A DNA stretch of 21,051 bases, from the IMG/VR virus record IMGVR_UViG_2579779002_000005; one strand, 5' to 3'. Within the stretch, counting starts at the first letter, position 1. The number at the start of each line of letters is the position of its first letter. Below the pieces are notes generated by a model. That model ran no database searches. It was not told the origin of the DNA and was given only the letters and a program-made list of their open reading frames with translations. Source of the DNA: a virus (taxonomy: Duplodnaviria > Heunggongvirae > Uroviricota > Caudoviricetes). Below, in pieces: positions 2,720 through 21,051 of the stretch. A program made the position numbers and the translations under genes.

Positions 2720-4576
2720 TTATGATGATGCTGGTGCATTTATCTCCAGCACCAGACTTTCTATCTCAACGCCATACGCTGCATTTTTGGTAATATCCGT
2801 CAGCGTCAGCGCATTCAGCCCCAGTGTCAGACTGTCTTTTATGACCTGGAATGCCGGGCCAGCCACTCCATTCAGTTTCGGAGTAACCGTGGCACTGCCG
2901 GCGGTGAACACCAGCTCCAGCGTCTGCCAGTCGTTACTGTAATTCCCGAACTCGCCCAACTTTGTGTTTCCTGCTTTCCTGTGATGCATCAGATTCAGTT
3001 TGCCGTCTGTGGTCTGGGTGAAGAACGACATCAGGAACGGGTTACCAGTCCCGGTCATCGCCACGACGTCAGGTAACGCTACATCGGTATACAGATAAAT
3101 TCCCAGACCGAACTGGTTGTTGGTCAGTGCGCCTGACAGTCGAAACTTACAGCTCAGTCTGCCACCCCGTGTCAGCAGGGAGACTGCGTCATCCACCGGA
3201 TGCATCAGGGACCAGGTTTTATTGCTCTGCTTGGTAACCTTAAACACACCATCTTCCAGCGCAACACTGCCGCCGGTGATGGTCCAGCCCTGCGCAGCAG
3301 CCTCTCCGGCTGTCGGCAGCAGGGAGACTGTACGAACGGATGTGTCACCATCAGACGGCCCCGATGGCGTGTCGCCGCCGGGCGAGGGTTTAATCTCCGG
3401 TGCGGTACCGCTGATGAAGGCGCTGGTTCGACCAACTGCGTTCAGAATAGCGGTTGCCAGGCGATCCGAAATAATGCCCCTGCGCGCCCATGAACTGAAA
3501 TGTGTCGGACGATTTGACGATACCCAATTACCATTACTACGGGATTGCGCGCCGTAATAACCTGCATCAGCAATATCCGGGTCTTCTGCCGGTAAGTTGG
3601 TGGGCGTGTTGTTGCCGTTACCGTCGGTCATGAACGGCACAAAGAAAACGTTGTCGCTCTCCCTGTTTTTGTACGCGCCGTAGACGGAGTCATACTGTGT
3701 GCCGTATGTGTTTTTCCAGTAATACGTCGTGTCGCCACAAATCCACGGTACAACTGCAGCACTGCCGCCATGGCACTGCGCCGCCAGCCCGGCAAGGTCA
3801 GCACGGAACTGCTGTACCATTGCAAGAAATGCTGCTGGCTGCTGGGCGTAACTGGCATTCGTCATATCGAATTCCCCCTGCATCCAGCATATCGCCAGCA
3901 AAACGTTTTTCGGGTTTTTCTGCAATGCTGCCTTCGTGCGGAAAAGCAGATCCTGATATAATGGTTTACCCACACCCCAGCGTGCCGAATCCTGGCTGGC
4001 CCCCGTGTCCGCACTGAATGTCCCCTCCGCGCCCTGGGTGAATGCCGAACCACCACGACAGCATGGTACCAGCAGGATCCCCGCATTATTAGGGATATAC
4101 GGAAGCAGTTTTTTGGCAATATGTAAGCCCTGTCCGACACAGCCGTACTGCCCTTTGCTCAGGTCAGCCCGGGGATGGTTAATCGTACTCATATCCTGAA
4201 CATCATGCAGACAATGGTCAGCAGGAATGATGTCGTTAAATACGCATACTTCACCACCGGGAGTCACTGTGTTACGACGGGCCAGTTGCTTAATGCGCGG
4301 ATGGGGCGCATCGTATGAATCCGGAAGCGGAAGCCCTTCACCGTAAGCCATGGCATTGGACTGCCCGGCCAGTACGATGACGTAGTACCACTCCGGCTCA
4401 GTTGCACCACTGACGACCACATCACCTTCTGCTGCAATCGCCTGCATCAGGGTATAAGGGGTTATGGCCACCGGACTACCAAACGGCTGCCAGCCCTCTT
4501 TCAGTTTATGTGTCAGCTTTTCCGCAAGATCTGACGGCGACGCCGCCCTGACAACATCATAGTGTTTAAATGCCAT
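2720..4576 (-). CDS. nanS-p: Prophage sialate O-acetylesterase (NanS-p-like, SGNH/SASA esterase domain)
   Basis: 618 aa with a GQSN nucleophile block (VIVLAGQSNAMAYGEG). Located between the tRNA cluster and the holin, as in Stx-type lambdoid phages. Confidence 0.75.
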   Translation of the reverse strand: MAFKHYDVVRAASPSDLAEKLTHKLKEGWQPFGSPVAITPYTLMQAIAAEGDVVVSGATEPEWYYVIVLAGQSNAMAYGEGLPLPDSYDAPHPRIKQLARRNTVTPGGEVCVFNDIIPADHCLHDVQDMSTINHPRADLSKGQYGCVGQGLHIAKKLLPYIPNNAGILLVPCCRGGSAFTQGAEGTFSADTGASQDSARWGVGKPLYQDLLFRTKAALQKNPKNVLLAICWMQGEFDMTNASYAQQPAAFLAMVQQFRADLAGLAAQCHGGSAAVVPWICGDTTYYWKNTYGTQYDSVYGAYKNRESDNVFFVPFMTDGNGNNTPTNLPAEDPDIADAGYYGAQSRSNGNWVSSNRPTHFSSWARRGIISDRLATAILNAVGRTSAFISGTAPEIKPSPGGDTPSGPSDGDTSVRTVSLLPTAGEAAAQGWTITGGSVALEDGVFKVTKQSNKTWSLMHPVDDAVSLLTRGGRLSCKFRLSGALTNNQFGLGIYLYTDVALPDVVAMTGTGNPFLMSFFTQTTDGKLNLMHHRKAGNTKLGEFGNYSNDWQTLELVFTAGSATVTPKLNGVAGPAFQVIKDSLTLGLNALTLTDITKNAAYGVEIESLVLEINAPASS

Positions 4577-4769
4577 GAATCCTCCCGGCCGGGATAATAT
4601 TGTGAGTAAAATGAGGAGCGGGCTGAAGTCCGGAAGTTACAGGACAATGGCAGAAGAGAGACAACAGCCCGCAATACGAAAAAGGCCGCGCTATTGCGCA
4701 GAGTGATTACTGTCGGATATTATTCGCCAGCTGAAATATTACTTCACGTTTTATTGTTTATTCCTTGCC

Positions 4770-4798: not shown

Positions 4799-4806
4799 GC
4801 CCACAA

Positions 4807-5044
4807 GAAAACCCCTCCGGAGAGGGGCTAAAGCCGCGTATCTGTATCATCATGCACATGGTGCCGGGTGCCTCCCGGTGAGTTCAGCCCGGTGCCACTA
4901 AACCCGCGTCATTCTCGTTTTGATAATCAGAGATTATACCGTCACCAGTCGCCCCTCCGCTCAGGGGGATTCACCATGCGAAATTTTTTTAACAAATGCC
5001 CAGTCTGACAGGCAACTGTCAACTTACTGAATTGTGAGCAACAT
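4807..5044. repeat. Copy 1 of an imperfect ~220-240 bp direct repeat (non-coding module)
   Basis: Shares with copy 2 the blocks cccctccggagaggggct, catggtgccgggtgcctcccggtga, gcccctccgc.cagggggattcaccatgc, ttttaacaaa and acagtcaac..ctgaattgtgag. Confidence 0.7.
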
Positions 5045-5292
5045 AGCATTTAACGGGGAACCTGTTTTCTGCAGTAAAAAGGCCCACCGGAGCGGATGGG
5101 CCTGGAAGGATAGCGGTCATGTGATGCCGGTTTCCCGGTAACTCAGCACCGGTATCTGAGTCAACGTTTTCTCTACTGGGTCATTTCCGATACGCCCTGC
5201 CTGCTGACAGGCTTTCATCACATCTGAAAATATAGCACCCTGACTGATACTGTAGTACCTAAGGTTCCAGAAACTGTGATGTATCCGGCACA

Positions 5293-5512
5293 GAAAAGCC
5301 CCTCCGGAGAGGGGCTGGAGAGTGGCGCTATGTGCCATTGCATGGTGCCGGGTGCCTCCCGGTGAATTCAGTACCAGCACCTGAATCCGCGATTATCCCA
5401 TATACCTACTCGCTGATTGCCCCTCCGCACAGGGGGATTCACCATGCCAGTTTCTTTTAACAAACTCCCCGCAAACCAGACAACAGTCAACCGCCTGAAT
5501 TGTGAGACATTT
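5293..5512. repeat. Copy 2 of the imperfect direct repeat
   Basis: Same conserved blocks as copy 1. On the minus strand its gcccctc tccg gaggggc hairpin is followed by TTTTCT, so it looks like a terminator. Confidence 0.7.
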
Positions 5513-5551: not shown

Positions 5552-5628
5552 TGGCGCGTTGTACTGGATTCGAACCAGTGACCGATTGCTTAGAAGGCAA
5601 TTGCTCTGTCCGGCTGAGCTAACAACGC
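5552..5628 (-). tRNA. tRNA-Arg (anticodon UCU)
   Basis: Minus-strand sequence folds as a cloverleaf: acceptor GCGTTGT/ACAACGC, D stem GCTC/GAGC, anticodon stem ATTGC/GCAAT with loop CTTCTAA, T arm ACTGG-TTCGAAT-CCAGT, encoded CCA. Confidence 0.85.
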
Positions 5629-5641
5629 AGGATACAGATAA

Positions 5642-5718
5642 TGGACCGCCTTCGGGGACCCGAACTCCGCGCAACCAGCTTCGAAGGCTGGCGCTCTTTC
5701 CTGATGAGCTAATGGCGG
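5642..5718 (-). tRNA. tRNA-Arg (anticodon UCG), slightly degenerate
   Basis: Cloverleaf with anticodon stem CCAGC/GCTGG and loop CTTCGAA. It has one acceptor mismatch (A6-A67), one T-stem mismatch and T-loop TTCGGGT (G at position 58). The anticodon loop is palindromic, so strand is assigned from the neighbouring tRNAs. Confidence 0.6.
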
Positions 5719-5725
5719 TATGTGA

Positions 5726-5801
5726 TGGTGGCCCTTGCTGGATTTGAACCAGCGACCTGGCGATTATGAGTCGCTCGCTCTCACCACTGAGCTAAAGGGC
5801 C
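5726..5801 (-). tRNA. tRNA-Ile2-like (anticodon CAU, ileX/ileZ-like; could be read as Met)
   Basis: Perfect acceptor GGCCCTT/AAGGGCC, D arm GCTC-AGTGGTGA-GAGC, anticodon loop CTCATAA, T arm GCTGG-TTCAAAT-CCAGC, CCA end. Closely resembles E. coli ileX as I recall it. Confidence 0.85.
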
Positions 5802-10420: not shown

Positions 10421-12685
10421 TTATACGGAAACTGGCACACGAGCAGGCAATGGATAGTGAGCCCAGTTATTAGCATTTAAAGCTCTTACGCCATCAGCAT
10501 AAACTTGTGTTTTTCCATCTAATGATTTTAAAGTTACTACAATAGTTACAGGTAAAGGCTCCATTAAGGCCGGTTCATTCGCTCTCAACGTTGTTTTAGC
10601 TTGAAGAGCCCAGTTACCCGAAGTAATTCCTTTATTAAATGCCTTGCGATGAATTTTTACTGGTGACCACTTTCCACCATGCTCAATTTGAGCTCTCTCA
10701 TATCCAGATTGACCGTTTTCTCCTTCCATAGGTACTTTTCCTTTTATAGTATTATTCTCAATTAAGCCAAAACTTAGCTCTACGTTCGCGCGAACATATT
10801 CACTGCCGGCATTAGGGTTCAGTGGTGGTGCATATGCAGCAGTAATTACAATCTCACCTTTAAATTTTCCATTTTGAATAAGTGCCGATGGTATGGGATA
10901 GTTTTCCTTTCTCCACCTCACCCCAGGAACCAAGAATGTTTGGAAAATCAGAGTAAACCTATCATCACTATCATATAAGGTCTCAATAACCTCATTAGGA
11001 ATTCCCGCTCCCAAATAGCGTCTTTCACTTGGCGAGTAATCAGGAGAAGATAATTGAGCGGAATGAATTAATAATGCTTTAATCAATGATGGTGAAACAT
11101 TAAAGTCTGAATTAGTGGCTATTCTCTGCCATGTATGCGCAGCTAAACTTGCCACAATTGGAGCAGCAAAACTAGTACCAAAATTAGAGCAAAGCCTATT
11201 ATCTGGCCCTACGACCTTTAAACTGCTTGCTCCTACATTCCAAGGTCTATGAACCCCACCGCCAGCATGGATTATATCTGGCTTTGGAGTAAATACAGGC
11301 CCAGGGCCACGACGAGTATATGGTGTCGGTGTTCCAATTTCACTTAAAGCATCATTAGCTTCCATATGAGAAACTGAACCAACTGTTAGTGCTCGGACTG
11401 ACTCTCCAGGAGAGGAAATTAAATCAGCACCTCCAAGCGGATCAGGATTTGGCCATGTACGTATAGGTTCATCTACATAATTACCTGCAGCAACTACAAA
11501 CAAAATACCAAATTTATCGCTGAGCCGATCTAACTCCATCGCAAAATCACTAAACATCTGCTCATTACATGGTCCGCCTCCCAAAGATAAATTCCAGACT
11601 TTTATATCTGGTCTTTTATTTACAGCATCTGCTAGCCTCAGAATTAAATCTGATATATAAGATCCATTTTCATCTAAAGCACAAACATCATGGATTTTAG
11701 ATTTTGTATCAGGAATCCATGGATGATTGTCATTTAAAAAATGAGCGCCTGATATCAATGAAGACACCATAGTCCCATGTTCATAACTCGTATCAGGAGG
11801 AATTACGTATGTTTCCCTACTCACTACCCAAGGAGTAATTGTTGCCGCGATGGGGCTTACCCCAGTGTCAAATACAGCAACAATGGGTAATTCTTCTGAT
11901 GGTACGGGAAAGCTATTTGTTTCAATGCCAACAGAATCACTTACACTAACCGGGAATGCTGAATATTTTGGTTCTGGAATTAACGTTCTTATACCCGGGT
12001 AATCAATGAGAATGTCTAATATATATCTATCATTTGGGGATAAATCCATTATCCTTAATAAGGGAAGACCACATTTTGGTCTAATCTCATCATATTTAAC
12101 TCCGTGTTGTTCTAATATAGAAATAACGTTTTCATAGTTGTTGTAAGTTGCATCTTCACCTGTGTACTCAAATAGTCGTACAAGGATGTTTGATGATTCA
12201 AACAAACCATCAGTGCCTCCTGGAACCTTCCTATTCTCATCCCAAGGTTCAATGCGCTCAATCGCGCTTAGATTAGCCAAAATCGCTTTAATATTCCGAT
12301 GTAAAATGACTGACTCTAATACGTCAAAACAGCCGGCATGAGCAGCAACCAACATTTCATCTATTTTGGCATGACCGGCATTTTGCAATCCAGCCTCTTG
12401 AGCAATTTTGTTCGGCCTATGCGTTTTGGCTATTCCCTGGTCTCTTAATTTGAAAACCAAAGTACCCAAGCTTCCAGGGTACTCTGAAAGTTTGGATTCT
12501 AAATAATGTTTACTGGTTGTTAAATTTCTTACTAGCCCTTGTCTATATTCGGCTGTTACATCAACCAATACCTTTGCCCCACCGCCAGCGTTTACTATTG
12601 CACCCAAGTCACTACTGGAAAAAGGGATTCTTAACATTGGGTTTGTAACTTTTGCGTTACTAAACTGTGTACCCCTTCTGCTCAT
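10421..12685 (-). CDS. Subtilisin-like serine protease (peptidase S8) with large N- and C-terminal extensions; probably cytoplasmic
   Basis: 754 aa. Catalytic residues in D-H-S order: VAVFD273TG, YEH303GT, oxyanion AAGN402Y, GTS505FAAP. No N-terminal signal peptide is apparent. The ORF overlaps the upstream ATPase gene by 26 bp. Confidence 0.85.
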   Translation of the reverse strand: MSRRGTQFSNAKVTNPMLRIPFSSSDLGAIVNAGGGAKVLVDVTAEYRQGLVRNLTTSKHYLESKLSEYPGSLGTLVFKLRDQGIAKTHRPNKIAQEAGLQNAGHAKIDEMLVAAHAGCFDVLESVILHRNIKAILANLSAIERIEPWDENRKVPGGTDGLFESSNILVRLFEYTGEDATYNNYENVISILEQHGVKYDEIRPKCGLPLLRIMDLSPNDRYILDILIDYPGIRTLIPEPKYSAFPVSVSDSVGIETNSFPVPSEELPIVAVFDTGVSPIAATITPWVVSRETYVIPPDTSYEHGTMVSSLISGAHFLNDNHPWIPDTKSKIHDVCALDENGSYISDLILRLADAVNKRPDIKVWNLSLGGGPCNEQMFSDFAMELDRLSDKFGILFVVAAGNYVDEPIRTWPNPDPLGGADLISSPGESVRALTVGSVSHMEANDALSEIGTPTPYTRRGPGPVFTPKPDIIHAGGGVHRPWNVGASSLKVVGPDNRLCSNFGTSFAAPIVASLAAHTWQRIATNSDFNVSPSLIKALLIHSAQLSSPDYSPSERRYLGAGIPNEVIETLYDSDDRFTLIFQTFLVPGVRWRKENYPIPSALIQNGKFKGEIVITAAYAPPLNPNAGSEYVRANVELSFGLIENNTIKGKVPMEGENGQSGYERAQIEHGGKWSPVKIHRKAFNKGITSGNWALQAKTTLRANEPALMEPLPVTIVVTLKSLDGKTQVYADGVRALNANNWAHYPLPARVPVSV

Positions 12686-13814
12686 ATGCTCCTGACTCCT
12701 TCAGAATGTTTGAAATTACTCTTGATGTAAGTTTGTACAAATTAGCAAGAACTCTGATAGAAAATAATTTTTTATCTTTAGAACGTAACCAACGAATTTC
12801 ATCTTCGTAAGTGCTTAAATTTACACCTTCCATAAGCGATTGCGCAAGATACAAACGCCTATACAATTTATGGTGATTTATCACACTTGCACCTTCAATA
12901 ACTGCATCCCTACGTGCATCCAAGCTCACCTGTTCAATTATTGCTCCGGATAATCCCTCCGATTTTCTTGATAAATCACTTAAATCTAGATCGCTACATA
13001 TCATATTCTTTAAACGATTTTTCCAAATTAACTCTCTCTGATGTATGTCAGGCAGAGGCATTGGAATTCTGAAGCTAAATCGCCTCCAGATTGCAGGATC
13101 CAGAAGTTGCTCATGGTTAGTTGAGGCAATAATTACCGTATCCTCTGATGCCGCATCCATATTCTGCAATAGTGAAATGACAACTCGCTGAAGCTCACCT
13201 ATATCTCTCTCATTACCTCTTGCTCCAGCTAAAGCATCAAATTCGTCTAAAAAAAGCACTGATGGCCTCTGCATTACATAATCGAAAACCTGTCTAAGAT
13301 TTTTGCTGGTTTGTCCCAATAAACTACTAATCAAAGTATCGCAACGCACTGTAAGAAGTGGAAAATCTAAGCGGGTAGCGATGTACTTAGATAACATAGT
13401 CTTACCTGTTCCTGGCTTTCCATACACGAGCATACGACTCGGCAATGCTGCATCAGCTTTAACAAACTCATCATAACGTTGAACATTAGTGATAAACTCT
13501 TCAACACGGGTACTGATTGCTGCAGGCAGAAAAATCTCTGAACTGTCTAATTTAGGATAACTGACATCAACAGTGTTGAGTCGACTATCAATATCTACCG
13601 GTAATGAGCCCAGAGATATCCCACCTCCAGCCCTTTGAGCTCCTGCCAACGCCTGGGGAGCTCTAAGCAACCTTTCTCTTATCATTCTGGCTTGCTTGAC
13701 CTCCCCTTTTTGTTCGAGCTTATCTGCCAGCAACCCAGCATAATTACTAGCCATCGAAGCATTTGCCTTTGTTGCACCTTCAATGATTTTTAACACTTCT
13801 GATAAATAATCCAT
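12660..13814 (-). CDS. AAA+ ATPase (classical AAA clade)
   Basis: 384 aa. Walker A GKPGTGKT (K138), Walker B VLFLDEFD, sensor-1 IIASTNH, arginine-finger region DPAIWRRF. GGGAG ribosome-binding site upstream of the ATG. Confidence 0.85.
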   Translation of the reverse strand: MDYLSEVLKIIEGATKANASMASNYAGLLADKLEQKGEVKQARMIRERLLRAPQALAGAQRAGGGISLGSLPVDIDSRLNTVDVSYPKLDSSEIFLPAAISTRVEEFITNVQRYDEFVKADAALPSRMLVYGKPGTGKTMLSKYIATRLDFPLLTVRCDTLISSLLGQTSKNLRQVFDYVMQRPSVLFLDEFDALAGARGNERDIGELQRVVISLLQNMDAASEDTVIIASTNHEQLLDPAIWRRFSFRIPMPLPDIHQRELIWKNRLKNMICSDLDLSDLSRKSEGLSGAIIEQVSLDARRDAVIEGASVINHHKLYRRLYLAQSLMEGVNLSTYEDEIRWLRSKDKKLFSIRVLANLYKLTSRVISNILKESGAYEQKGYTV

Positions 13815-16976: not shown

Positions 16977-17402
16977 TTAGTGCATCACCACAGCATTCCC
17001 TGCCGGGCCGCCGCGATTCATCTGGTCATACAAAACAACCGCTGACGCAACAAAATCATCGACATCCTTCCCCAGCCGATCCCTCCGTTCGACGATCTCA
17101 CGGTAATATTCAGAACTGTGGCTGCGCATACGGGCCACCAGCAAAGGCGGCATCGCCTTTTCGATCGCCGGTAACAGAGCCTGCATTTTTTCAACAGCAT
17201 CAGGGGTGTCTTTATCCAGCCAACGGAAAATTTTCTGGGTATTACGGGCCAGGGCTTCCGGATGGCTGTCGTCATACAGTTCCGGGAACGTCATTCCCAG
17301 CTCGAAATACGCTTTGGTAATTTTCGCAGCCGGCACTTTTTCGCCGTCCGGATGCGCCCAGACATTCATCGCCATGCGGATGTGTTCATGCTTGATTTTC
17401 AT
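16977..17402 (-). CDS. cII-position early protein (YdaT-like)
   Basis: 141-aa ORF overlapping the Cro-like gene by 17 bp, in the gene order found in the Rac prophage (racR / ydaS-ydaT-ydaU-ydaV). Assigned by synteny, not motif. Confidence 0.45.
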   Translation of the reverse strand: MKIKHEHIRMAMNVWAHPDGEKVPAAKITKAYFELGMTFPELYDDSHPEALARNTQKIFRWLDKDTPDAVEKMQALLPAIEKAMPPLLVARMRSHSSEYYREIVERRDRLGKDVDDFVASAVVLYDQMNRGGPAGNAVVMH

Positions 17403-17667
17403 GAATCAAGCTCCTAGAAAGTGGTTGTGTTAACGTTTTGGTATCTTCCAGCTCGGGCCAAATATTCATCCAATCAAAAGGCCTTAGTTGCTGACGTGTA
17501 ACTTCACCATTACTGGCTCGCTCAATAAGGACACATAACGATGCCCCTAACACTTGACCTTTACTCAATGCCTTTCTTAGATAACCGATGCTGGTACCAC
17601 ACTCGCATGCAAACATACGCTGTTCATCTGACGAAAGAGAATTGAGAAATATTCTTAATTCTTCCAT
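17386..17667 (-). CDS. Cro-like HTH regulator (YdaS-like)
   Basis: 93 aa with AAGGAG Shine-Dalgarno 5 nt upstream; HTH-like segment GTSIGYLRKALSKGQ; divergent from the repressor gene across an operator-bearing intergenic region. Confidence 0.6.
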   Translation of the reverse strand: MEELRIFLNSLSSDEQRMFACECGTSIGYLRKALSKGQVLGASLCVLIERASNGEVTRQQLRPFDWMNIWPELEDTKTLTQPLSRSLIHENQA

Positions 17668-17767: not shown

Positions 17768-18187
17768 ATGGACAAATATGAATTTAGACGACAGCAACTC
17801 ATCAAAATTCGTGATGAGAAATGCGATGGTAAAGCGGTTAACGTGGCCAGAAAGATCGGGCGCGAGCCTTCTTATGTATCAAGAATGTTGTACCCAGAGG
17901 GGAAAAAGGGAAAAAAACGGATCGCTGATGATATGGTGGAGATTATCGAAGAGTCCTTTGGGTTACCCCGGGGATGGATGGATGGTATCGTTTCATCATC
18001 AACGAACACAGCCTCCAGTTATGAAACAAGGGTTCTAACGCCACGACAACGTATTTTTTTAGATCTCTTAGACGAACTGCCAGAAAGTGAAGCGGATAAA
18101 TTATTAAAAACTCTTGAAGAGAAAAAACAGTATTACAATATGATCTACGAAGAAATCCGTAAAAAGAAAGCACAAAACGCATCATAG
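17768..18187 (+). CDS. Prophage repressor, short non-cleavable type (RacR-like)
   Basis: 139 aa with an N-terminal HTH (GKAVNVARKIGREPSYVSRMLYPEG) and no S24 peptidase domain. Divergent from the Cro-like gene. Confidence 0.65.
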   Translation: MDKYEFRRQQLIKIRDEKCDGKAVNVARKIGREPSYVSRMLYPEGKKGKKRIADDMVEIIEESFGLPRGWMDGIVSSSTNTASSYETRVLTPRQRIFLDLLDELPESEADKLLKTLEEKKQYYNMIYEEIRKKKAQNAS

Positions 18188-18229
18188 CTCACCAAACAAC
18201 TAGTCACCAGTTAAGACACCGCAAAAATT

Positions 18230-18266
18230 TACCCATGGGTATTTACTTTTTAAATACCTATGGGTA
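18230..18266. promoter_or_regulatory. OL-like operator pair downstream of the repressor gene
   Basis: Perfect 12-bp palindrome TACCCATGGGTA at 18230..18241 and the variant TACCTATGGGTA at 18255..18266. They share the TACC...GGTA half-sites with the sites at 17697 and 17721. Confidence 0.55.
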
Positions 18267-18452
18267 TCCTTCTTTTCATACCAACCCACCCCGCCCCACA
18301 GAATGCAGGGCAATACTTCGAGTTACCAGGCAGTGGTCAGGGGTTAAGTAGCCAGCCCGAGGCGTAAGAACATGACGGCAGGGTTCAACTTTAATAACTA
18401 TGCAGCAGGTTTTTGTTCCGCTACCCCGGCGTTAAGGGGAAATGAGGTCAAC

Positions 18453-18605
18453 ATGGATATGCTCAATCTTGGCAACAACGAATCTCTGGTATGTGGCGTG
18501 TTCCCCAACCAGGACGGCACGTTTACCGCGATGACGTATACCAGAAGCAAAACGTTTAAAACTGAAGCTGGCGCGCGTCGCTGGTTAACCAGAAACACTG
18601 ACTGA
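18453..18605 (+). CDS. Small 50-aa protein in the first position after the OL-like sites
   Basis: Start MDMLNLGNNESL with a GAGG Shine-Dalgarno 7 nt upstream. The ORF track lists a longer 77-aa form starting at 18372. Occupies the position of the small ydaG/ydaF genes in Rac (from memory). Confidence 0.4.
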   Translation: MDMLNLGNNESLVCGVFPNQDGTFTAMTYTRSKTFKTEAGARRWLTRNTD

Positions 18606-19018
18606 TGAGGTTGACGATGGAATTTAAAGATTTACCAGTACCATTCCAGGAAATGGCATCGAATGTGGTTCGCTCTCAACTGGCGACTCTTGACCTGAGT
18701 ACCGTAGAAAAAGAAACCATCGATACTATATCCGGTAACGTGCGTCGTGCCTTTATAGGTCTGTATGAAGAGAAGCGCCTATTCGGCGGACAGAATTCGC
18801 CTGAAAACAAGAATCAAGCAAATGATGAGAAGCTGAAACACATTATCGCCTTACTTTTGGAAGACGCAAAACGTCTACAGCAACTGGAACCAAATGCAGG
18901 CACAGAGGCCCGCATTTGGATTGCCATGAAATCACTCAAATGTGAAAGCAGTGATTATTTCAAAACAACAATTAAAACTACTCAACTTTCGGGAGAGCTA
19001 CTGAAGAAATTGCCATAA
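18605..19018 (+). CDS. Hypothetical soluble 133-137 aa protein
   Basis: The ATG at 18605 overlaps the upstream stop (TGATG); an alternative ATG at 18617 has a GAGG Shine-Dalgarno. No recognisable motifs. Confidence 0.45.
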   Translation: MRLTMEFKDLPVPFQEMASNVVRSQLATLDLSTVEKETIDTISGNVRRAFIGLYEEKRLFGGQNSPENKNQANDEKLKHIIALLLEDAKRLQQLEPNAGTEARIWIAMKSLKCESSDYFKTTIKTTQLSGELLKKLP

Positions 19019-19256
19019 GAGCATGGTCTTTCTCTTGTTCTGCAAGATGAGCATTAATACCTGGTATGGTTTTTTCAAATTTATCTATCTGTTGAATAAC
19101 AACTTCGCGGTATACGTTTGTTTTTGTACCACCAAGCGCAGCCGTTAATGCAGAAAGCATATTTAGTATCATATCAGTGCGATATGAAAGAATCCTGATA
19201 GCTTCATCTTGTTTTTCAATAATAGATTGCAGGGCCTCAATTTGCTTTTTATCCAT
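18978..19256 (-). CDS. Hypothetical 92-aa protein, convergent with and overlapping the preceding gene
   Basis: Start MDKKQIEALQ with a strong AGGAGG Shine-Dalgarno 5 nt upstream; heptad-like hydrophobic spacing suggests a coiled coil. Its 3' end overlaps 18605..19018 by about 40 bp. Confidence 0.45.
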   Translation of the reverse strand: MDKKQIEALQSIIEKQDEAIRILSYRTDMILNMLSALTAALGGTKTNVYREVVIQQIDKFEKTIPGINAHLAEQEKDHALMAISSVALPKVE

Positions 19257-19295
19257 TTCACCCTCCTGAGGGTTGGTAATTAAGGAGTTCTCCAC

Positions 19296-19700
19296 GGGTC
19301 AGGTGGAGTGCGTGCGCCGGACACGGGTGAACATCCGGCACTGACAGTTTACTGAAAGGATATGTCCCTGAAAAGTCAGGGCATAACGCGAAAGCGCACG
19401 GCGAAATTGGTCTCTCTGTACGGTGTCGTTAAATTTAGTTCGACCGTGCGCTTCCGGTTGTGGCAATCCGCGAAATGGTGCGGCGGTAAGTATGGCGGGG
19501 TTATTCCTTCCCCCGTTGAGGACACCGGGTTGTCAGGTTGACCATACGCTTAAGTGACAACCCCGCTGCAACGCCCTCTGTTATCAATTTTCTGGTGACG
19601 TTTGGCGGTATCAGTTTTACTCCGTGACTGCTCTGCCGCCCTTTTTAAAGTGAATTTTGTGATGTGGTGAATGCGGCTGAGCGCACGCGGAACAGTTAAA
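19296..19700. other. GC-rich structured non-coding region with nested hairpins and repeated GCGTGCGC / GCGCACG motifs in alternating orientation
   Basis: Hairpins ctccac..gtggag (about 19284..19308), ccgga..tccgg (19317..19340) and ccctga-aaag-tcaggg (19366..19381). CGTGCGC occurs at 19311 and 19445, and its complement GCGCACG at 19394 and 19681. The only long ORF here (19617..20222, minus) looks spurious. Confidence 0.3.
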
Positions 19701-19815
19701 ACCAAAAACAGTGTTATGGGTGGATTCTCTGTATCCGGCGTTAATTGTTAACTGGTTAACGTCACCTGGAGGCACCAGGCACCGCATCACAAAATTCATT
19801 GTTGAGGACGCGATA

Positions 19816-20004
19816 ATGGAAACGTTATTACCAAACGTTAATACGTCTGAAGGTTGTTTTGAAATTGGTGTCACTATCAGTAACCCAGTATTTACTGAAG
19901 ATGCCATTAACAAGAGAAAACACGAACGGGAGCTATTAAATAAAATATGCATTCTTTCAATGCTGGCCCGTTTACGTCCGATACAAAAAGGATGCTGGCA
20001 ATGA
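19816..20004 (+). CDS. Hypothetical 62-aa early protein
   Basis: Start METLLPNV with a GAGGA Shine-Dalgarno about 8 nt upstream; its stop overlaps the next start (ATGA). Confidence 0.4.
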   Translation: METLLPNVNTSEGCFEIGVTISNPVFTEDAINKRKHERELLNKICILSMLARLRPIQKGCWQ

Positions 20005-20192
20005 ATACAGCATTTGCACTTGTTCTGACAGTTTTTCTTGTTTCCGGAGAGCCAGTTGATATTGCAGTCAGTGTTCACAGGACAATGCAGGAGTGTGTGA
20101 CTGCAGCAACCGAACAGAAAATTCCCGGTAACTGTTACCCGGTCGATAAAGTTATTCACCAGGATAATAACGAAATCCCGGCAGGTCTTTAA
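20001..20192 (+). CDS. Hypothetical 63-aa protein with an N-terminal hydrophobic (signal or membrane) segment
   Basis: MNTAFALVLTVFLVSGEP...; AAGGA Shine-Dalgarno upstream; translationally coupled to the preceding ORF. Confidence 0.4.
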   Translation: MNTAFALVLTVFLVSGEPVDIAVSVHRTMQECVTAATEQKIPGNCYPVDKVIHQDNNEIPAGL

Positions 20193-20284
20193 AACAGTTC
20201 CGTAATAAATATCCGGTTTCATTCTTATATGCCAGCAATGGCAGGGATTTGTTCACCCTTAAATCTGTAATGAGGTAAAACAAA

Positions 20285-21051
20285 ATGAGTAAAGTCTTTA
20301 TTTGCGCCGCCATTCCGGACGAACAGGCAATAAAGGAAGAAGGTGCCGTCGCTGTAGCCACTGCCATTGAAGCCGGTGATGAACGTCGCGCCCGCGCAAA
20401 ATTTCACTGGCAATTCCTGGAACATTATCCGGCTGCTCAGGACTGCGCTTATAAATTTCTTGTCTGCGAGGATAAACCCGGTATACCCCGCCCTGCCCTC
20501 GATTCCTGGGATGCTGAATATATGCAGGAAAACCGCTGGGATGAGGCGTCTGCTTCCTTTGTCCCGGTCGAGACTGAATCCGATCCGATGAACGTCACTT
20601 TTGACAACCTAGCCCCTGAAGTACAGAACGCTGTCATGGTTAAGTTCGACACATGTGAAAACATCACTGTTGATATGGTGATTAGCGCACAGGAATTGTT
20701 GCAGGAAGACATGGCAACATTCGACGGCCATATCGTTGAAGCGTTGATGAAAATGCCAGAAGTTAACGCTATGTATCCGGAGCTTAAGCTGCATGCCATC
20801 GGGTGGGTTAAGCATAAATGTAAGCCTGGTGCCAAATGGCCCGAAATTCAGGCAGAGATGCGCATCTGGAAAAAACGTCGCGAAGGTGAACGCAAGGAAG
20901 CCGGAAAATACACGTCTGTTGTTGATCTCGCCCGCGCCAGAGCCAATCAACAGCACACTGAAAATTCAACAGGAAAAATCAACCCGGTCATTGCTGCCAT
21001 TCATCGCGAATACAAGCAGACATGGAAAACACTGGATGACGAACTGGCCTA
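20285..21051 (+). CDS. Hypothetical phage early protein, 3' partial (runs off the window)
   Basis: Open frame from the ATG at 20285 (MSKVFICAAIPDEQ...) to the window end, at least 255 codons, with a TGAGGT Shine-Dalgarno 9 nt upstream. Absent from the ORF track because there is no stop in the window. Overlapping minus-strand ORFs look spurious. Confidence 0.55.
   Translation, partial: MSKVFICAAIPDEQAIKEEGAVAVATAIEAGDERRARAKFHWQFLEHYPAAQDCAYKFLVCEDKPGIPRPALDSWDAEYMQENRWDEASASFVPVETESDPMNVTFDNLAPEVQNAVMVKFDTCENITVDMVISAQELLQEDMATFDGHIVEALMKMPEVNAMYPELKLHAIGWVKHKCKPGAKWPEIQAEMRIWKKRREGERKEAGKYTSVVDLARARANQQHTENSTGKINPVIAAIHREYKQTWKTLDDELA

What the first reader, a model, noticed from the sequence alone, without database searches (positions are those of the whole stretch)
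18372..19295. Accessory genes in the lysogeny-expressed position after the repressor, including a convergent overlapping pair
Seen in sequence: downstream of the repressor and OL-like sites are a 50-aa ORF, a roughly 135-aa ORF, and a minus-strand 92-aa ORF with a strong AGGAGG site whose 3' end overlaps the 135-aa ORF by about 40 bp. None has recognisable motifs. Established knowledge: the region next to the repressor (rexAB or sieB in lambda) often carries exclusion or defence genes expressed in the lysogen. Inference: candidate superinfection-exclusion or toxin-antitoxin-like functions, with the convergent overlap allowing antisense regulation.
Basis: partly seen in the sequence, partly recalled or inferred. 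Interest (0 to 1): 0.45.

Follow-up and report, generated by a model that had tools for sequence, protein, structure and literature searches.

The report
Antisense accessory gene inside dicB operon
The three small genes are real, but two of them are the first genes of a prophage's repressed early (dicB/DicF) operon, and the third is an uncharacterised small gene that points the opposite way, sits where lambda and Rac carry the exclusion gene sieB, and follows a conserved upstream leader that precedes unrelated small genes in other E. coli prophages.

Summary
In detail: ORFs of 50 aa (18453-18605,+), 133 aa (18617-19018,+) and 92 aa (18978-19256,-) exist, all under purifying selection, with a 41-bp convergent overlap and an AGGAGG site.

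The placement was misread. Two palindromic operators (18230-18266) lie between the repressor and these ORFs. The + ORFs are therefore the promoter-proximal genes of a Qin-type dicBF early-left operon (ydfA/DUF1391, then a two-module 133-aa protein, then the DicF precursor, dicB and ydfD). That operon is repressed in K-12 lysogens; this is not a rexAB-like position.

Only the minus-strand gene is a candidate lysogen-expressed accessory gene. It sits in the antisense slot held by sieB in lambda and Rac. It has a -10-like hexamer at a fixed distance and an ~85-nt leader whose third hairpin pairs the ribosome-binding site.

That leader occurs in 61% of complete E. coli genomes. It precedes at least four unrelated small ORF families, or none (K-12 Qin).

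The 92-aa protein is soluble and three-helical, from a tiny enterobacterial prophage family with no sequence or fold match. A toxin-antitoxin pairing is not supported. Expression and function remain untested.

The parts
17768..18187 (+). Prophage repressor, 139 aa. Not a DicA orthologue; only the C-terminal ~50 aa resemble DicA.
   Evidence: phrog_5736 'transcriptional regulator', E 6.4e-70. NCBIfam DicA model matches residues 86-136 only, E 1.9e-5 and below cut-off. The gene is divergent from a cro/YdaS-like gene (17386-17667) and a cII/YdaT-like gene (16977-17402).
18228..18268 (.). OL-like operator pair (TACCCATGGGTA at 18230 and TACCTATGGGTA at 18255). It overlaps a predicted + strand promoter, TTTACC-17-TAAATA (18228-18256), which would be the dicBp/PL equivalent.
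   Evidence: TACC-N4-GGTA occurs 4 times in the window, all flanking the repressor gene, against 0.17 expected. Inverted repeat I6. The promoter was read from the sequence; its activity was not tested.
18453..18605 (+). ydfA homologue (DUF1391, 50 aa), first gene of the dicBF-type early-left operon.
   Evidence: Pfam PF07151, E 4.7e-28. 89% nucleotide identity to K-12 ydfA. dN/dS 0.19. PGAP calls it a 'DUF1391 family protein'.
18617..19018 (+). 133-aa protein of unknown function built from two modules. The N-module (~1-66) is shared with many E. coli prophage proteins. The C-module (~71-133, 'LLEDAKRLQQLEPNAGTEARIWIA') exists as a stand-alone 71-aa protein in Salmonella prophages and as the N-terminus of Cronobacter phage phiES15 gp10.
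   Evidence: phrog_1363 over the whole length, plus separate PHROGs for residues 5-66 and 73-118. 259 clusters, many covering only ~47% of the query. Sequences. dN/dS 0.30 (N-module) and 0.18-0.54 (C-module). No Pfam, NCBIfam, PADLOC or PDB match.
18978..19256 (-). 92-aa soluble, acidic, three-helix protein of unknown function. This is the cargo of the antisense cassette.
   Evidence: phrog_18692, E 9.6e-63. dN/dS 0.08-0.25; against L009 the annotated frame (0.17) is the lowest of six. AF2 model pLDDT 83.7, helices 3-41, 46-59 and 69-85. No TM segment and pI 5.7. 13 representatives among 1.84 billion proteins. Always antisense to its early-lytic neighbours in related loci.
19257..19341 (-). 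Conserved leader of the cassette, read on the minus strand: hairpin 1 (19340-19315), hairpin 2 (19308-19290), then an anti-SD CUCCUU (19287-19282) paired with the SD AGGAGG (19267-19262).
   Evidence: RNAalifold consensus of three hairpins. 95.4% of cells paired; covariation 0.165 against 0.062, 0/500 shuffles. The minus strand folds at -36.2 kcal/mol, z -2.43; the plus strand gives z 0.04. The same leader precedes four unrelated ORF families.
19346..19374 (-). Candidate sigma-70 promoter of the cassette: -35 TTTTCA (19374-19369), 17-nt spacer, -10 TAAACT (19351-19346).
   Evidence: Read from the sequence. It scores 8/12, below the scan threshold. A -10-like hexamer, often with an extended TGn, lies 5-9 nt upstream of hairpin 1 in each diverged lineage although the surrounding sequence differs. 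No repressor operator overlaps it. The start site was not measured, and a covarying hairpin at 19364-19382 overlaps the -35.
19271..19589 (+). Long untranslated DicF-precursor region, 95% identical to K-12 Qin. It includes the inverted repeat 19389-19401/19444-19456, which lies where RNase III makes the 190-nt DicF 5' end in K-12.
   Evidence: blastn against K-12. Inverted repeat I21. Processing data from PMC10448788; the position was transferred by alignment, which is inference.
19590..19641 (+). DicF sRNA.
   Evidence: Rfam RF00039, 76.7 bits against a gathering score of 48.
19816..20192 (+). dicB (19816-20004) and ydfD/DUF1482 (20001-20192), the distal genes of the operon.
   Evidence: Pfam DicB E 6.2e-37 and DUF1482 E 7.8e-25. 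PGAP annotation.

Best explanation
The locus is the immunity-proximal part of a Qin/Rac-type early-left (dicBF) operon in an ompW-integrated lambdoid prophage of E. coli.

Shown: a repressor gene is followed by two operator palindromes. After these come ydfA, a mosaic 133-aa gene, the DicF precursor, dicB and ydfD, all on the + strand.

Inferred from K-12 data: this operon is transcribed from a promoter that overlaps the operators and is shut off in the lysogen. The two + ORFs are therefore early-lytic genes.

Shown: the minus-strand 92-aa gene is a separate, mobile cassette inserted antisense between the ydfA side and the sRNA/division-inhibitor side. This is the slot held by sieB in Rac and lambda. 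The cassette consists of a conserved ~85-nt leader with two hairpins and an anti-SD/SD hairpin, followed by the ORF. The same leader, up to the start codon, precedes at least four unrelated small ORF families in other prophages, and none in K-12 Qin.

Inferred: a promoter just upstream of hairpin 1, free of repressor operators, transcribes the cassette in the lysogen. Translation is throttled by the SD-sequestering hairpin. On induction, or on entry of a related phage, the strong converging early-left transcript collides with and base-pairs to this mRNA, so the two transcription units inhibit each other. This resembles sieB and its antisense RNA.

Guess: the protein's role is a host- or phage-directed accessory function such as exclusion of other phages.
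For: - Operon identity: Pfam/Rfam hits for DUF1391, DicF, DicB and DUF1482; 89-95% nucleotide identity to K-12 Qin on both sides of the variable segment; operators found only around the repressor gene; K-12 experiments on dicBp and the polycistronic transcript (PMC10448788).
- Real genes: dN/dS.
- sieB slot: lambda sieB is the only + gene among N, ral, ea10, cIII, kil and gam, and it abuts N. Rac has racR-ydaG-ydaF(DUF1391)-[sieB antisense, 4-nt overlap]-kilS sRNA-kilR.
- sieB link by sequence: the Rac sieB upstream block aligns with the leaders of two 92-aa-family members.
- Orientation: antisense in every related locus examined, including lambdoid, P2-like/Cox-side and integrase-adjacent contexts.
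- Leader: conserved sequence, compensatory pairs, strand-specific folding and G-U pairs.
- Cargo swapping: 133 leader instances, of which about 68 have no ORF and the rest carry families A, B, C or D. B, C and D are unrelated to A and to each other by hhalign.
- Frequency: leader in 3315 of 5426 complete E. coli genomes; 92-aa gene in 125.
- General rule: genes antisense to lytic genes are typical accessory loci with their own promoters (PMC7067206). sieB is expressed from the prophage (PMC10883804).
Against: - No transcript or protein data for the minus strand were found.
- The candidate promoter matches only 8/12 consensus positions and was not reported by the consensus scan.
- A covarying hairpin (19364-19382) overlaps its -35, so the start site might lie further upstream.
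- About 330 nt upstream of the ORF is also part of the + strand DicF precursor and is conserved even where there is no cargo. Some of the conservation may therefore serve the + strand RNA.
- No intrinsic terminator follows the 92-aa ORF.
- Most leader copies carry no ORF.
- The 92-aa protein matches no family, defence model or fold. It is not membrane-bound as SieB is expected to be from prior knowledge (hydropathy).
- The K-12 study saw no evidence for additional promoters in the region, although it probed the + strand.
Confidence: 0.62

Rival explanations
1. The 133-aa and 92-aa genes form a dedicated two-gene module, toxin-antitoxin-like or sensor-effector. In this reading the last ~20 residues of the + strand protein ('DY[LF]..I..[TS]..[LI]S.ELL..') are a peptide that binds or neutralises the 92-aa protein, and the 41-bp convergent overlap couples their expression.
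For: The 41-nt overlap and a similar C-terminal tail recur wherever the 92-aa family is found with an incoming ORF, even though the rest of the partner is unrelated: a 71-aa protein, the 133-aa protein, and 171-214-aa HTH proteins. The tail extends a few codons beyond the overlap and shows some synonymous differences there (sequences). Partners in P2-like prophages are HTH proteins with a tail, an architecture reminiscent of antitoxins.
Against: There are no toxin or antitoxin family hits above noise; the RelB-like hit has E 0.011 and 15.9 bits against a cut-off of 50, and PADLOC finds nothing. The genes are convergent, not co-transcribed. Family members exist with no annotated partner (L007, L013). 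The same N-module protein is paired with an unrelated antisense ORF in PPompW. A similar 'ENYFAT.SIN' motif also precedes cargo families A2 and C, so the motif may simply mark a recombination boundary. The tail is too short for a selection test.
Confidence: 0.1
2. The element acts as RNA, not protein. The conserved promoter and leader produce an antisense transcript that damps leaky expression of the toxic dicBF operon in lysogens, and the ORFs downstream are passengers.
For: About half of the leader copies sampled (about 68 of 133), including K-12 Qin, have no ORF after the leader and simply run antisense into ydfC. The leader is far more conserved than any cargo. The operon encodes toxic DicB and DicF (PMC10448788). 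Prophage antisense RNAs with exclusion or regulatory roles are known (PMC7067206).
Against: The 92-aa ORF is under clear purifying selection in its own frame only. It keeps its length across 33-74% identical homologues. The leader carries a strong SD and start codon that are conserved with every cargo. The two roles are not mutually exclusive.
Confidence: 0.15
3. The 'leader' is conserved because it is part of the + strand early-left transcript, either as a DicF/KilS precursor processing element or as a mosaic boundary sequence. The minus-strand ORFs would then be opportunistic insertions with no dedicated promoter, or not expressed at all.
For: [quoted passage not shown] It is 95% identical in K-12, where no cargo exists. 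The whole ~330-nt block, including the RNase III-type stem, is conserved upstream of 92-aa homologues in Salmonella P2-like prophages.
Against: The plus strand of this segment folds no better than shuffles (z 0.04), while the minus strand gives z -2.43 and forms the covarying hairpins. Three G-U pairs in hairpin 1 would be A-C mismatches on the + strand. The anti-SD/SD pairing only makes sense on the minus strand. The block is kept in loci that lack DicF. The ORFs begin exactly at a conserved SD-ATG.
Confidence: 0.13

Closest known systems
sieB of Rac, lambda and P22 (prophage-expressed superinfection exclusion / abortive infection gene with antisense RNA control)
   Same: It is embedded antisense in the early-left operon, convergent with and touching or overlapping the upstream early gene. 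In Rac it lies between the DUF1391 gene (ydaF) and the sRNA plus division inhibitor (kilS-kilR), which mirrors ydfA ... DicF-dicB here. The Rac sieB upstream block aligns with the leaders of two members of the 92-aa family. sieB is expressed in the lysogen, and its translation is switched by an antisense RNA (PMC10883804; PMC7067206; PMC12197685).
   Different: There is no sequence similarity to SieB: no Pfam or other family hit. The protein is 92 aa against 162-192 aa. It has no hydrophobic segment; SieB is expected to be membrane-associated, which is prior knowledge and was not tested here. Expression and exclusion phenotype are untested.
dicBF operon of the Qin cryptic prophage (E. coli K-12)
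   Same: Order and sequence match: repressor, operators, ydfA, long untranslated DicF precursor, DicF, dicB, ydfD. Nucleotide identity is 89-95% in the shared parts. K-12 also carries the leader sequence on the minus strand.
   Different: ydfB and ydfC are replaced by the 133-aa gene and the antisense 92-aa gene. The repressor and operators are of a different specificity; the repressor resembles DicA only in its C-terminal ~50 aa. The prophage here appears largely intact: int, xis, exo, Q and lysis genes are present.
Prophage 'morons' / accessory loci encoded antisense to lytic genes
   Same: A small gene in reverse orientation within a lytic operon, with a candidate promoter of its own. This arrangement is described as characteristic of accessory loci (Owen et al. 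2020, PMC7067206).
   Different: Here one conserved leader is shared by several unrelated cargo ORFs, and by cargo-less copies, in thousands of genomes. The papers read here did not describe that pattern for this locus.
lambda rexAB
   Same: Accessory genes close to the repressor gene.
   Different: rexAB lie between cI and OL and are co-transcribed with cI (co-transcription is established knowledge). The ORFs here lie beyond OL, two of them in the repressed operon and one antisense to it.

Membership tests
dicBF-type (Qin/Rac-like) early-left operon | Repressor gene followed by operator sites and a promoter reading away from it | tested here: met
   TACC-N4-GGTA occurs twice at 18230-18266 and twice in the cro-repressor intergenic region, 4 matches against 0.17 expected. 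A TTTACC-17-TAAATA promoter-like site overlaps them (sequence). Promoter activity and repression were not tested.
dicBF-type (Qin/Rac-like) early-left operon | ydfA (DUF1391) as the promoter-proximal gene | tested here: met
   PF07151, E 4.7e-28, 97 bits against a cut-off of 27.3.
dicBF-type (Qin/Rac-like) early-left operon | DicF sRNA followed by dicB and ydfD | tested here: met
   RF00039, 76.7 bits. PF05358 E 6.2e-37 and PF07358 E 7.8e-25.
dicBF-type (Qin/Rac-like) early-left operon | ydfB and ydfC between ydfA and the DicF precursor | tested here: not met
   No similarity to K-12 between 18585 and 19270. That segment holds the 133-aa gene and the antisense 92-aa gene instead.
SieB superinfection exclusion | Gene antisense within the early-left operon, next to the first early genes | tested here: met
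   Annotated lambda and Rac layouts compared with the window.
SieB superinfection exclusion | Sequence homology to SieB | tested here: not met
   No Pfam, PHROG-annotated, NCBIfam or PADLOC hit to SieB for the 92-aa protein or its homologues.
SieB superinfection exclusion | Hydrophobic / membrane-associated protein (prior knowledge of SieB) | tested here: not met
   The maximum 19-residue Kyte-Doolittle mean is 0.93. The AF2 model is a three-helix soluble bundle.
SieB superinfection exclusion | Expressed from its own promoter in the lysogen; aborts superinfecting phage | not testable with these tools
   Only a candidate promoter (19346-19374, minus strand) and comparative conservation of a -10-like hexamer are available.
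Type II toxin-antitoxin pair | Homology of either protein to a known toxin or antitoxin | tested here: not met
   The best hit is a RelB-like antitoxin, E 0.011, 15.9 bits against a cut-off of 50. PADLOC and Pfam find nothing.
Type II toxin-antitoxin pair | Two adjacent co-transcribed genes that always occur together | tested here: not met
   The genes are convergent. The bulk of the partner differs between loci or is absent. Only a ~20-aa tail travels with the 92-aa gene.
rexAB-like lysogenic position (co-transcribed with the repressor, upstream of OL) | Location between the repressor gene and OL | tested here: not met
   The operators lie at 18230-18266 and the ORFs begin at 18453. Lambda layout for comparison.
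AroQ chorismate mutase (lead from weak NCBIfam hits) | Significant match to CM profiles or a CM-like fold | tested here: not met

The most novel reading that the evidence does not exclude
The conserved antisense promoter and leader in dicBF-type prophages marks a polymorphic cargo hotspot: a fixed expression platform into which small, unrelated proteins are swapped at the start codon. The candidates so far are the 92-aa family, the 77-aa, 73-aa and 63-69-aa families, and, behind a related leader, sieB. In this reading the cargos are a set of prophage-expressed anti-phage or host-modulating factors. The SD-sequestering leader and the converging early-left transcript would tie their expression to the lysogenic or lytic state. 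The 92-aa protein would be the founding member of a new exclusion or regulatory family.
Probability: 0.15. Interest if true: 0.7.

Novelty: new member of a known kind. Interest (0 to 1): 0.4.

Why it matters
The dicBF operon is among the best-studied cryptic-prophage loci in E. coli, yet the papers read here treat it as a single + strand transcription unit.

This analysis points to a second unit on the opposite strand. Its leader occurs in about 61% of complete E. coli genomes and carries different small proteins in different strains, in the position where lambda and Rac keep sieB.

If the cassette is expressed in lysogens, it offers three things:
- a ready-made set of candidate exclusion or host-modulating proteins to test;
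- a possible explanation for how leaky expression of toxic DicB and DicF is restrained;
- an example of gene swapping at a fixed translation start.

If it is not expressed, the locus is an ordinary mosaic joint between prophage modules.

Tried and rejected
- **Sequence searches of the PDB.** The 92-aa profile, the 133-aa protein and the repressor found nothing.
- **PADLOC.** No defence-system hit for any of the three ORFs or for remote homologues.
- **Deposited phages.** tblastn of the 92-aa protein and of the A2 variant found no match in 50,697 records. One plasmid matched.
- **GTDB representative genomes.** No relative of the 92-aa protein. The leader was found only in E. albertii plus two assemblies of unrelated taxa (Chryseobacterium, a Collinsella MAG), which I take to be contamination; not checked.
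- **Rfam at a permissive threshold over 18900-19720.** Only DicF.
- **Consensus promoter and terminator scan.** It reported neither the cassette promoter nor a terminator for the 92-aa gene.
- **Published start-site data for the K-12 copy of the leader.** The Thomason 2015 paper is not held. The Cappable-seq supplement is cut before this coordinate. No paper mentions the protein accessions.
- **Alignment A5.** Too diverse for the search for related loci.
Full report
**1. What is in the sequence**

The window matches E. coli chromosomes at 100% identity and EPEC E2348/69 at 99.5%. It is a lambdoid prophage integrated beside ompW.

Around the finding the order of features is as follows:
- a cII/YdaT-like gene (16977-17402, -);
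- a cro/YdaS-like gene (17386-17667, -);
- a 139-aa repressor (17768-18187, +);
- the three ORFs of the finding;
- DicF (19590-19641, +; Rfam 76.7 bits);
- dicB (19816-20004) and ydfD (20001-20192).

The three ORFs are annotated by PGAP at 18453-18605 (+, 50 aa), 18617-19018 (+, 133 aa) and 18978-19256 (-, 92 aa). The convergent overlap is 41 bp. AGGAGG precedes the minus-strand ATG by 5 nt. The 50-aa ORF does have a recognisable family, YdfA/DUF1391 (Pfam E 4.7e-28).

**2. Are the ORFs genes?**

Comparison with diverged homologues gives these dN/dS values:

| Gene | dN/dS |
|---|---|
| ydfA | 0.19 |
| 133-aa protein, N-module | 0.30 |
| 133-aa protein, C-module | 0.18-0.54 |
| 92-aa gene | 0.08-0.25 |

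For the 92-aa gene against L009, the annotated frame (0.17) has the lowest ratio of the six frames; the others range from 0.34 to 2.96. All three ORFs are under purifying selection as proteins.

**3. Position relative to the immunity switch**

The palindrome TACC-N4-GGTA occurs four times in 21 kb. Two copies lie between cro and the repressor gene, and two lie at 18230 and 18255, just downstream of the repressor gene. Chance expectation is 0.17. A TTTACC-17-TAAATA promoter-like site overlaps the downstream pair.

The flanks match K-12 Qin: ydfA at 89% identity and 19271-20300 at 95%. In K-12, dicBp lies between dicA and ydfA. It is repressed 22-fold by DicA and yields a single ydfABC-dicF-dicB-ydfD transcript, from which RNase III and RNase E release DicF (PMC10448788).

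By homology of layout and sequence, the two + strand ORFs are the promoter-proximal genes of a repressed early-left operon. They are not in the rexAB position, which in lambda lies between cI and OL. This step is inference: neither the promoter nor its repression was measured for this repressor. The repressor is not a DicA orthologue; only its C-terminal ~50 residues resemble DicA.

**4. The variable segment**

Between ydfA and the DicF precursor, K-12 has ydfB and ydfC. The window has the 133-aa gene and the antisense 92-aa gene instead.

The 133-aa protein has two modules:
- Residues ~1-66 recur in many E. coli prophage proteins with other C-termini, for example PPompW_070.
- Residues ~71-133 ('LLEDAKRLQQLEPNAGTEARIWIA') form a stand-alone 71-aa protein in Salmonella prophages and the N-terminus of Cronobacter phage phiES15 gp10.

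No function could be assigned.

**5. The 92-aa gene family and its contexts**

The family is very small: 22 clusters from a single-sequence search, 13 representatives among 1.84 billion proteins, and 33 clusters from a profile. Members come from E. coli, Salmonella, Klebsiella and a few metagenomes. The gene is in 125 of 5426 complete E. coli genomes. It is in one plasmid and in no deposited phage genome.

In every locus retrieved, the gene points against its early-lytic neighbours:
- lambdoid early-left operons in Salmonella (L004-L009, L015, L019);
- the Cox-side early operon of P2-like prophages (L012, L016-L018);
- next to an integrase (L013).

**6. The overlap is not a specific gene pair**

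The 41-nt overlap recurs in eight loci, but the incoming ORFs are unrelated: the 71-aa protein, the 133-aa protein, and 171-214-aa HTH proteins. They share only their last ~20 residues ('DY[LF]..I..[TS]..[LI]S.ELL..'). The end of that tail is the antisense reading of the 92-aa C-terminus 'SVALPK.E'. Some family members have no annotated partner (L007, L013).

A related motif ('ENYFAT.SIN') precedes other cargo types too. The tail therefore looks like the 3' boundary of a mobile unit that the upstream gene reads into. A functional tail-protein interaction cannot be excluded and is kept as a low-probability rival.

**7. A conserved leader shared by different cargos**

Upstream of the ORF, on its own strand, all close and several remote homologues share this sequence: GCCGGAUGYUYACCYGUGUCCGGC (hairpin 1), a second hairpin with compensatory changes (CUCCAC/GUGGAG, UCCCGAC/GUCGGGA, UCCCAAC/GUUGGGA, CCACACG/CGUGUUGG), then ACUCC, a spacer, and the SD GGAGG.

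RNAalifold predicts three hairpins, the third pairing an anti-SD with the SD. In the alignment, 95.4% of cells are paired and the covariation score is 0.165 against 0.062 in shuffles (0/500). This rests on only seven sequences.

The minus-strand RNA of 19240-19360 folds to -36.2 kcal/mol (z -2.43). The plus strand is no better than shuffles (z 0.04) and does not form these hairpins. Three G-U pairs in hairpin 1 also fit only the minus strand.

A -10-like hexamer, often with an extended TGn, lies 5-9 nt upstream of hairpin 1 in each diverged lineage, although the surrounding sequence differs. Examples are TAAACT here, TAAGCT, TAAAAT, TGtTATTAT and TGcTATAT. In the window the candidate promoter is TTTTCA-17-TAAACT (19374-19346, minus strand). 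No repressor operator overlaps it.

I scanned IMG/VR for hairpin 1 and combined the hits with loci already in hand, giving 133 instances:

| What follows the leader | Instances |
|---|---|
| No ORF (K-12 Qin type; leader runs into the antisense of ydfC) | ~68 |
| 92-aa family (A1) | ~30 |
| Distant 91-aa relatives (A2; hhalign probability 96.9% to A1) | 7 |
| 77-aa ORF (B; PPompW type) | 15 |
| 73-74-aa ORF (C) | 8 |
| 63-69-aa ORF (D) | 2 |

B, C and D are unrelated to A and to each other (hhalign probability below 1%). None has a known function. The leader is essentially identical through GGAGGGTGAA, and the sequences diverge at the start codon. The 129-nt promoter-plus-leader occurs in 3315 of 5426 complete E. 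coli genomes, at up to five copies each.

**8. The sieB parallel**

In lambda, sieB (34482-35036, +) is the only rightward gene among N, ral, ea10, cIII, kil and gam, and it abuts the end of N.

In Rac the order is racR, ydaG, ydaF (DUF1391), then sieB antisense (overlapping ydaF by 4 nt), then kilS sRNA and kilR. The window has repressor, ydfA (DUF1391), the 133-aa gene, then the 92-aa gene antisense, then DicF sRNA and dicB. This is the same slot.

The sequence upstream of Rac sieB shares a block (GTGCCCGGTT..CCACCTC.GGGC..CGGTGG) with a second leader type. That leader type precedes 92-aa-family members in L015 and L019 and an unannotated antisense ORF in phiES15.

sieB is one of the systems expressed from the P22 prophage (PMC10883804). 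Its translation is switched by the antisense RNA sas (PMC7067206, PMC12197685). Genes encoded antisense to lytic genes with their own promoter are described as typical accessory loci (PMC7067206).

The 92-aa protein is not a SieB homologue and is not hydrophobic. It works from the same place, but it is not a member of that family.

**9. Most likely mechanism**

Shown:
- the gene content and order;
- the operators;
- purifying selection on all three ORFs;
- the antisense orientation in every related locus examined;
- the conserved, strand-specific leader;
- cargo replacement at the start codon.

Inferred:
- The + ORFs are silent in the lysogen and are expressed early after induction.
- The cassette is transcribed from its own operator-free promoter in the lysogen.
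- Translation is limited by the SD-sequestering hairpin.
- Converging transcription and full complementarity make the cassette and the early-left operon mutually antagonistic. On induction the cassette is switched off. In the lysogen its transcript may help keep leaky ydfA-DicF-dicB expression down.

Guess: the protein has an exclusion or other accessory role.

**10. Weak points**

- No expression data were found for the minus strand.
- The promoter is a weak consensus match (8/12) and was missed by the scan.
- A covarying hairpin (19364-19382) overlaps its -35.
- The ~330-nt block upstream of the ORF doubles as the DicF precursor. It is conserved even in Salmonella P2-like loci without DicF, so its conservation may serve either strand.
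- No terminator follows the ORF.
- Half of the leader copies sampled carry no cargo.

**11. Verdict**

The toxin-antitoxin idea is not supported.

The two + strand genes are ordinary uncharacterised early-operon genes. The minus-strand gene is a new, uncharacterised member of the class of antisense prophage accessory genes. The added point of interest is that its leader is a widespread platform shared by unrelated small ORFs.

Noticed in passing
L003 2563-2660 (E. coli K-12 MG1655, about 1649062-1649160, minus strand): K-12 Qin keeps the cassette's candidate promoter, hairpins 1-2 and anti-SD, but no SD or ORF follows. Any transcript would run antisense into ydfC. This is the commonest form of the leader, about 68 of 133 instances.
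   Followed up: partly
L011 2886-3119 (PPompW prophage, minus strand); IMG/VR loci L109, L128, L122, L103 and others: Three further small ORF families (77 aa, 73-74 aa, 63-69 aa; PHROGs 10348, 7249, 2605; all of unknown function) start at the same SD-ATG behind the identical leader.
   Followed up: partly
L010 2735-3022 (Cronobacter phage phiES15, minus strand): An unannotated 95-aa antisense ORF (phrog_8894) overlaps the 3' end of gp10 by 30 nt. It sits in the same slot, behind a second leader type that resembles the sequence upstream of Rac sieB.
   Followed up: partly
window 10421-13814 (-): An iteA/iteS pair (anti-phage ATPase plus S8 peptidase, as named by PGAP in the identical genome) lies between the replication genes and the Q antiterminator region. 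This is a defence system carried by the same prophage.
   Followed up: no
window 4799-5008 and 5286-5476 (-); 5555-5801 (-): Two copies of the sRNA STnc100 (161 and 136 bits) lie beside a cluster of three tRNA genes, downstream of the Q region.
   Followed up: no
window 4302-4637 (+): An IraM anti-adapter gene (RpoS stabilisation), as annotated in the identical genome, is encoded opposite to the flanking late-region genes. It is another antisense accessory gene in this prophage.
   Followed up: no
window 19362-19541 (+): A 59-aa ORF matching phrog_8854 lies wholly inside the untranslated DicF-precursor region and spans the RNase III-type stem. It is probably a spurious ORF call that became a phage protein family.
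   Followed up: no
window 19364-19382: The hairpin GCCCUGACUUUUCAGGG (minus-strand reading) shows a compensatory variant (CUCUGA/UCAGAG) and minus-strand-compatible wobble pairs among loci. It overlaps the candidate -35. Its 5' half on the + strand (CCCUGAAAA) resembles the start of lambda boxB. Its role is unknown.
   Followed up: partly
L018 4670-5000; L012 1-250: Salmonella P2-like prophages that lack DicF still carry about 330 nt homologous to the E. coli DicF-precursor region, including the 13-bp stem CGGAAGCGCAC/GTGCGCTTTCG, upstream of their 92-aa homologue.
   Followed up: partly
L007 4001-4318: A Salmonella copy of the 92-aa gene has a replaced C-terminus after residue ~73 and lies directly convergent with the repressor gene. 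It is probably a recombination remnant. A ParE/Phd toxin-antitoxin pair and an sRNA-Xcc1 match lie nearby.
   Followed up: no
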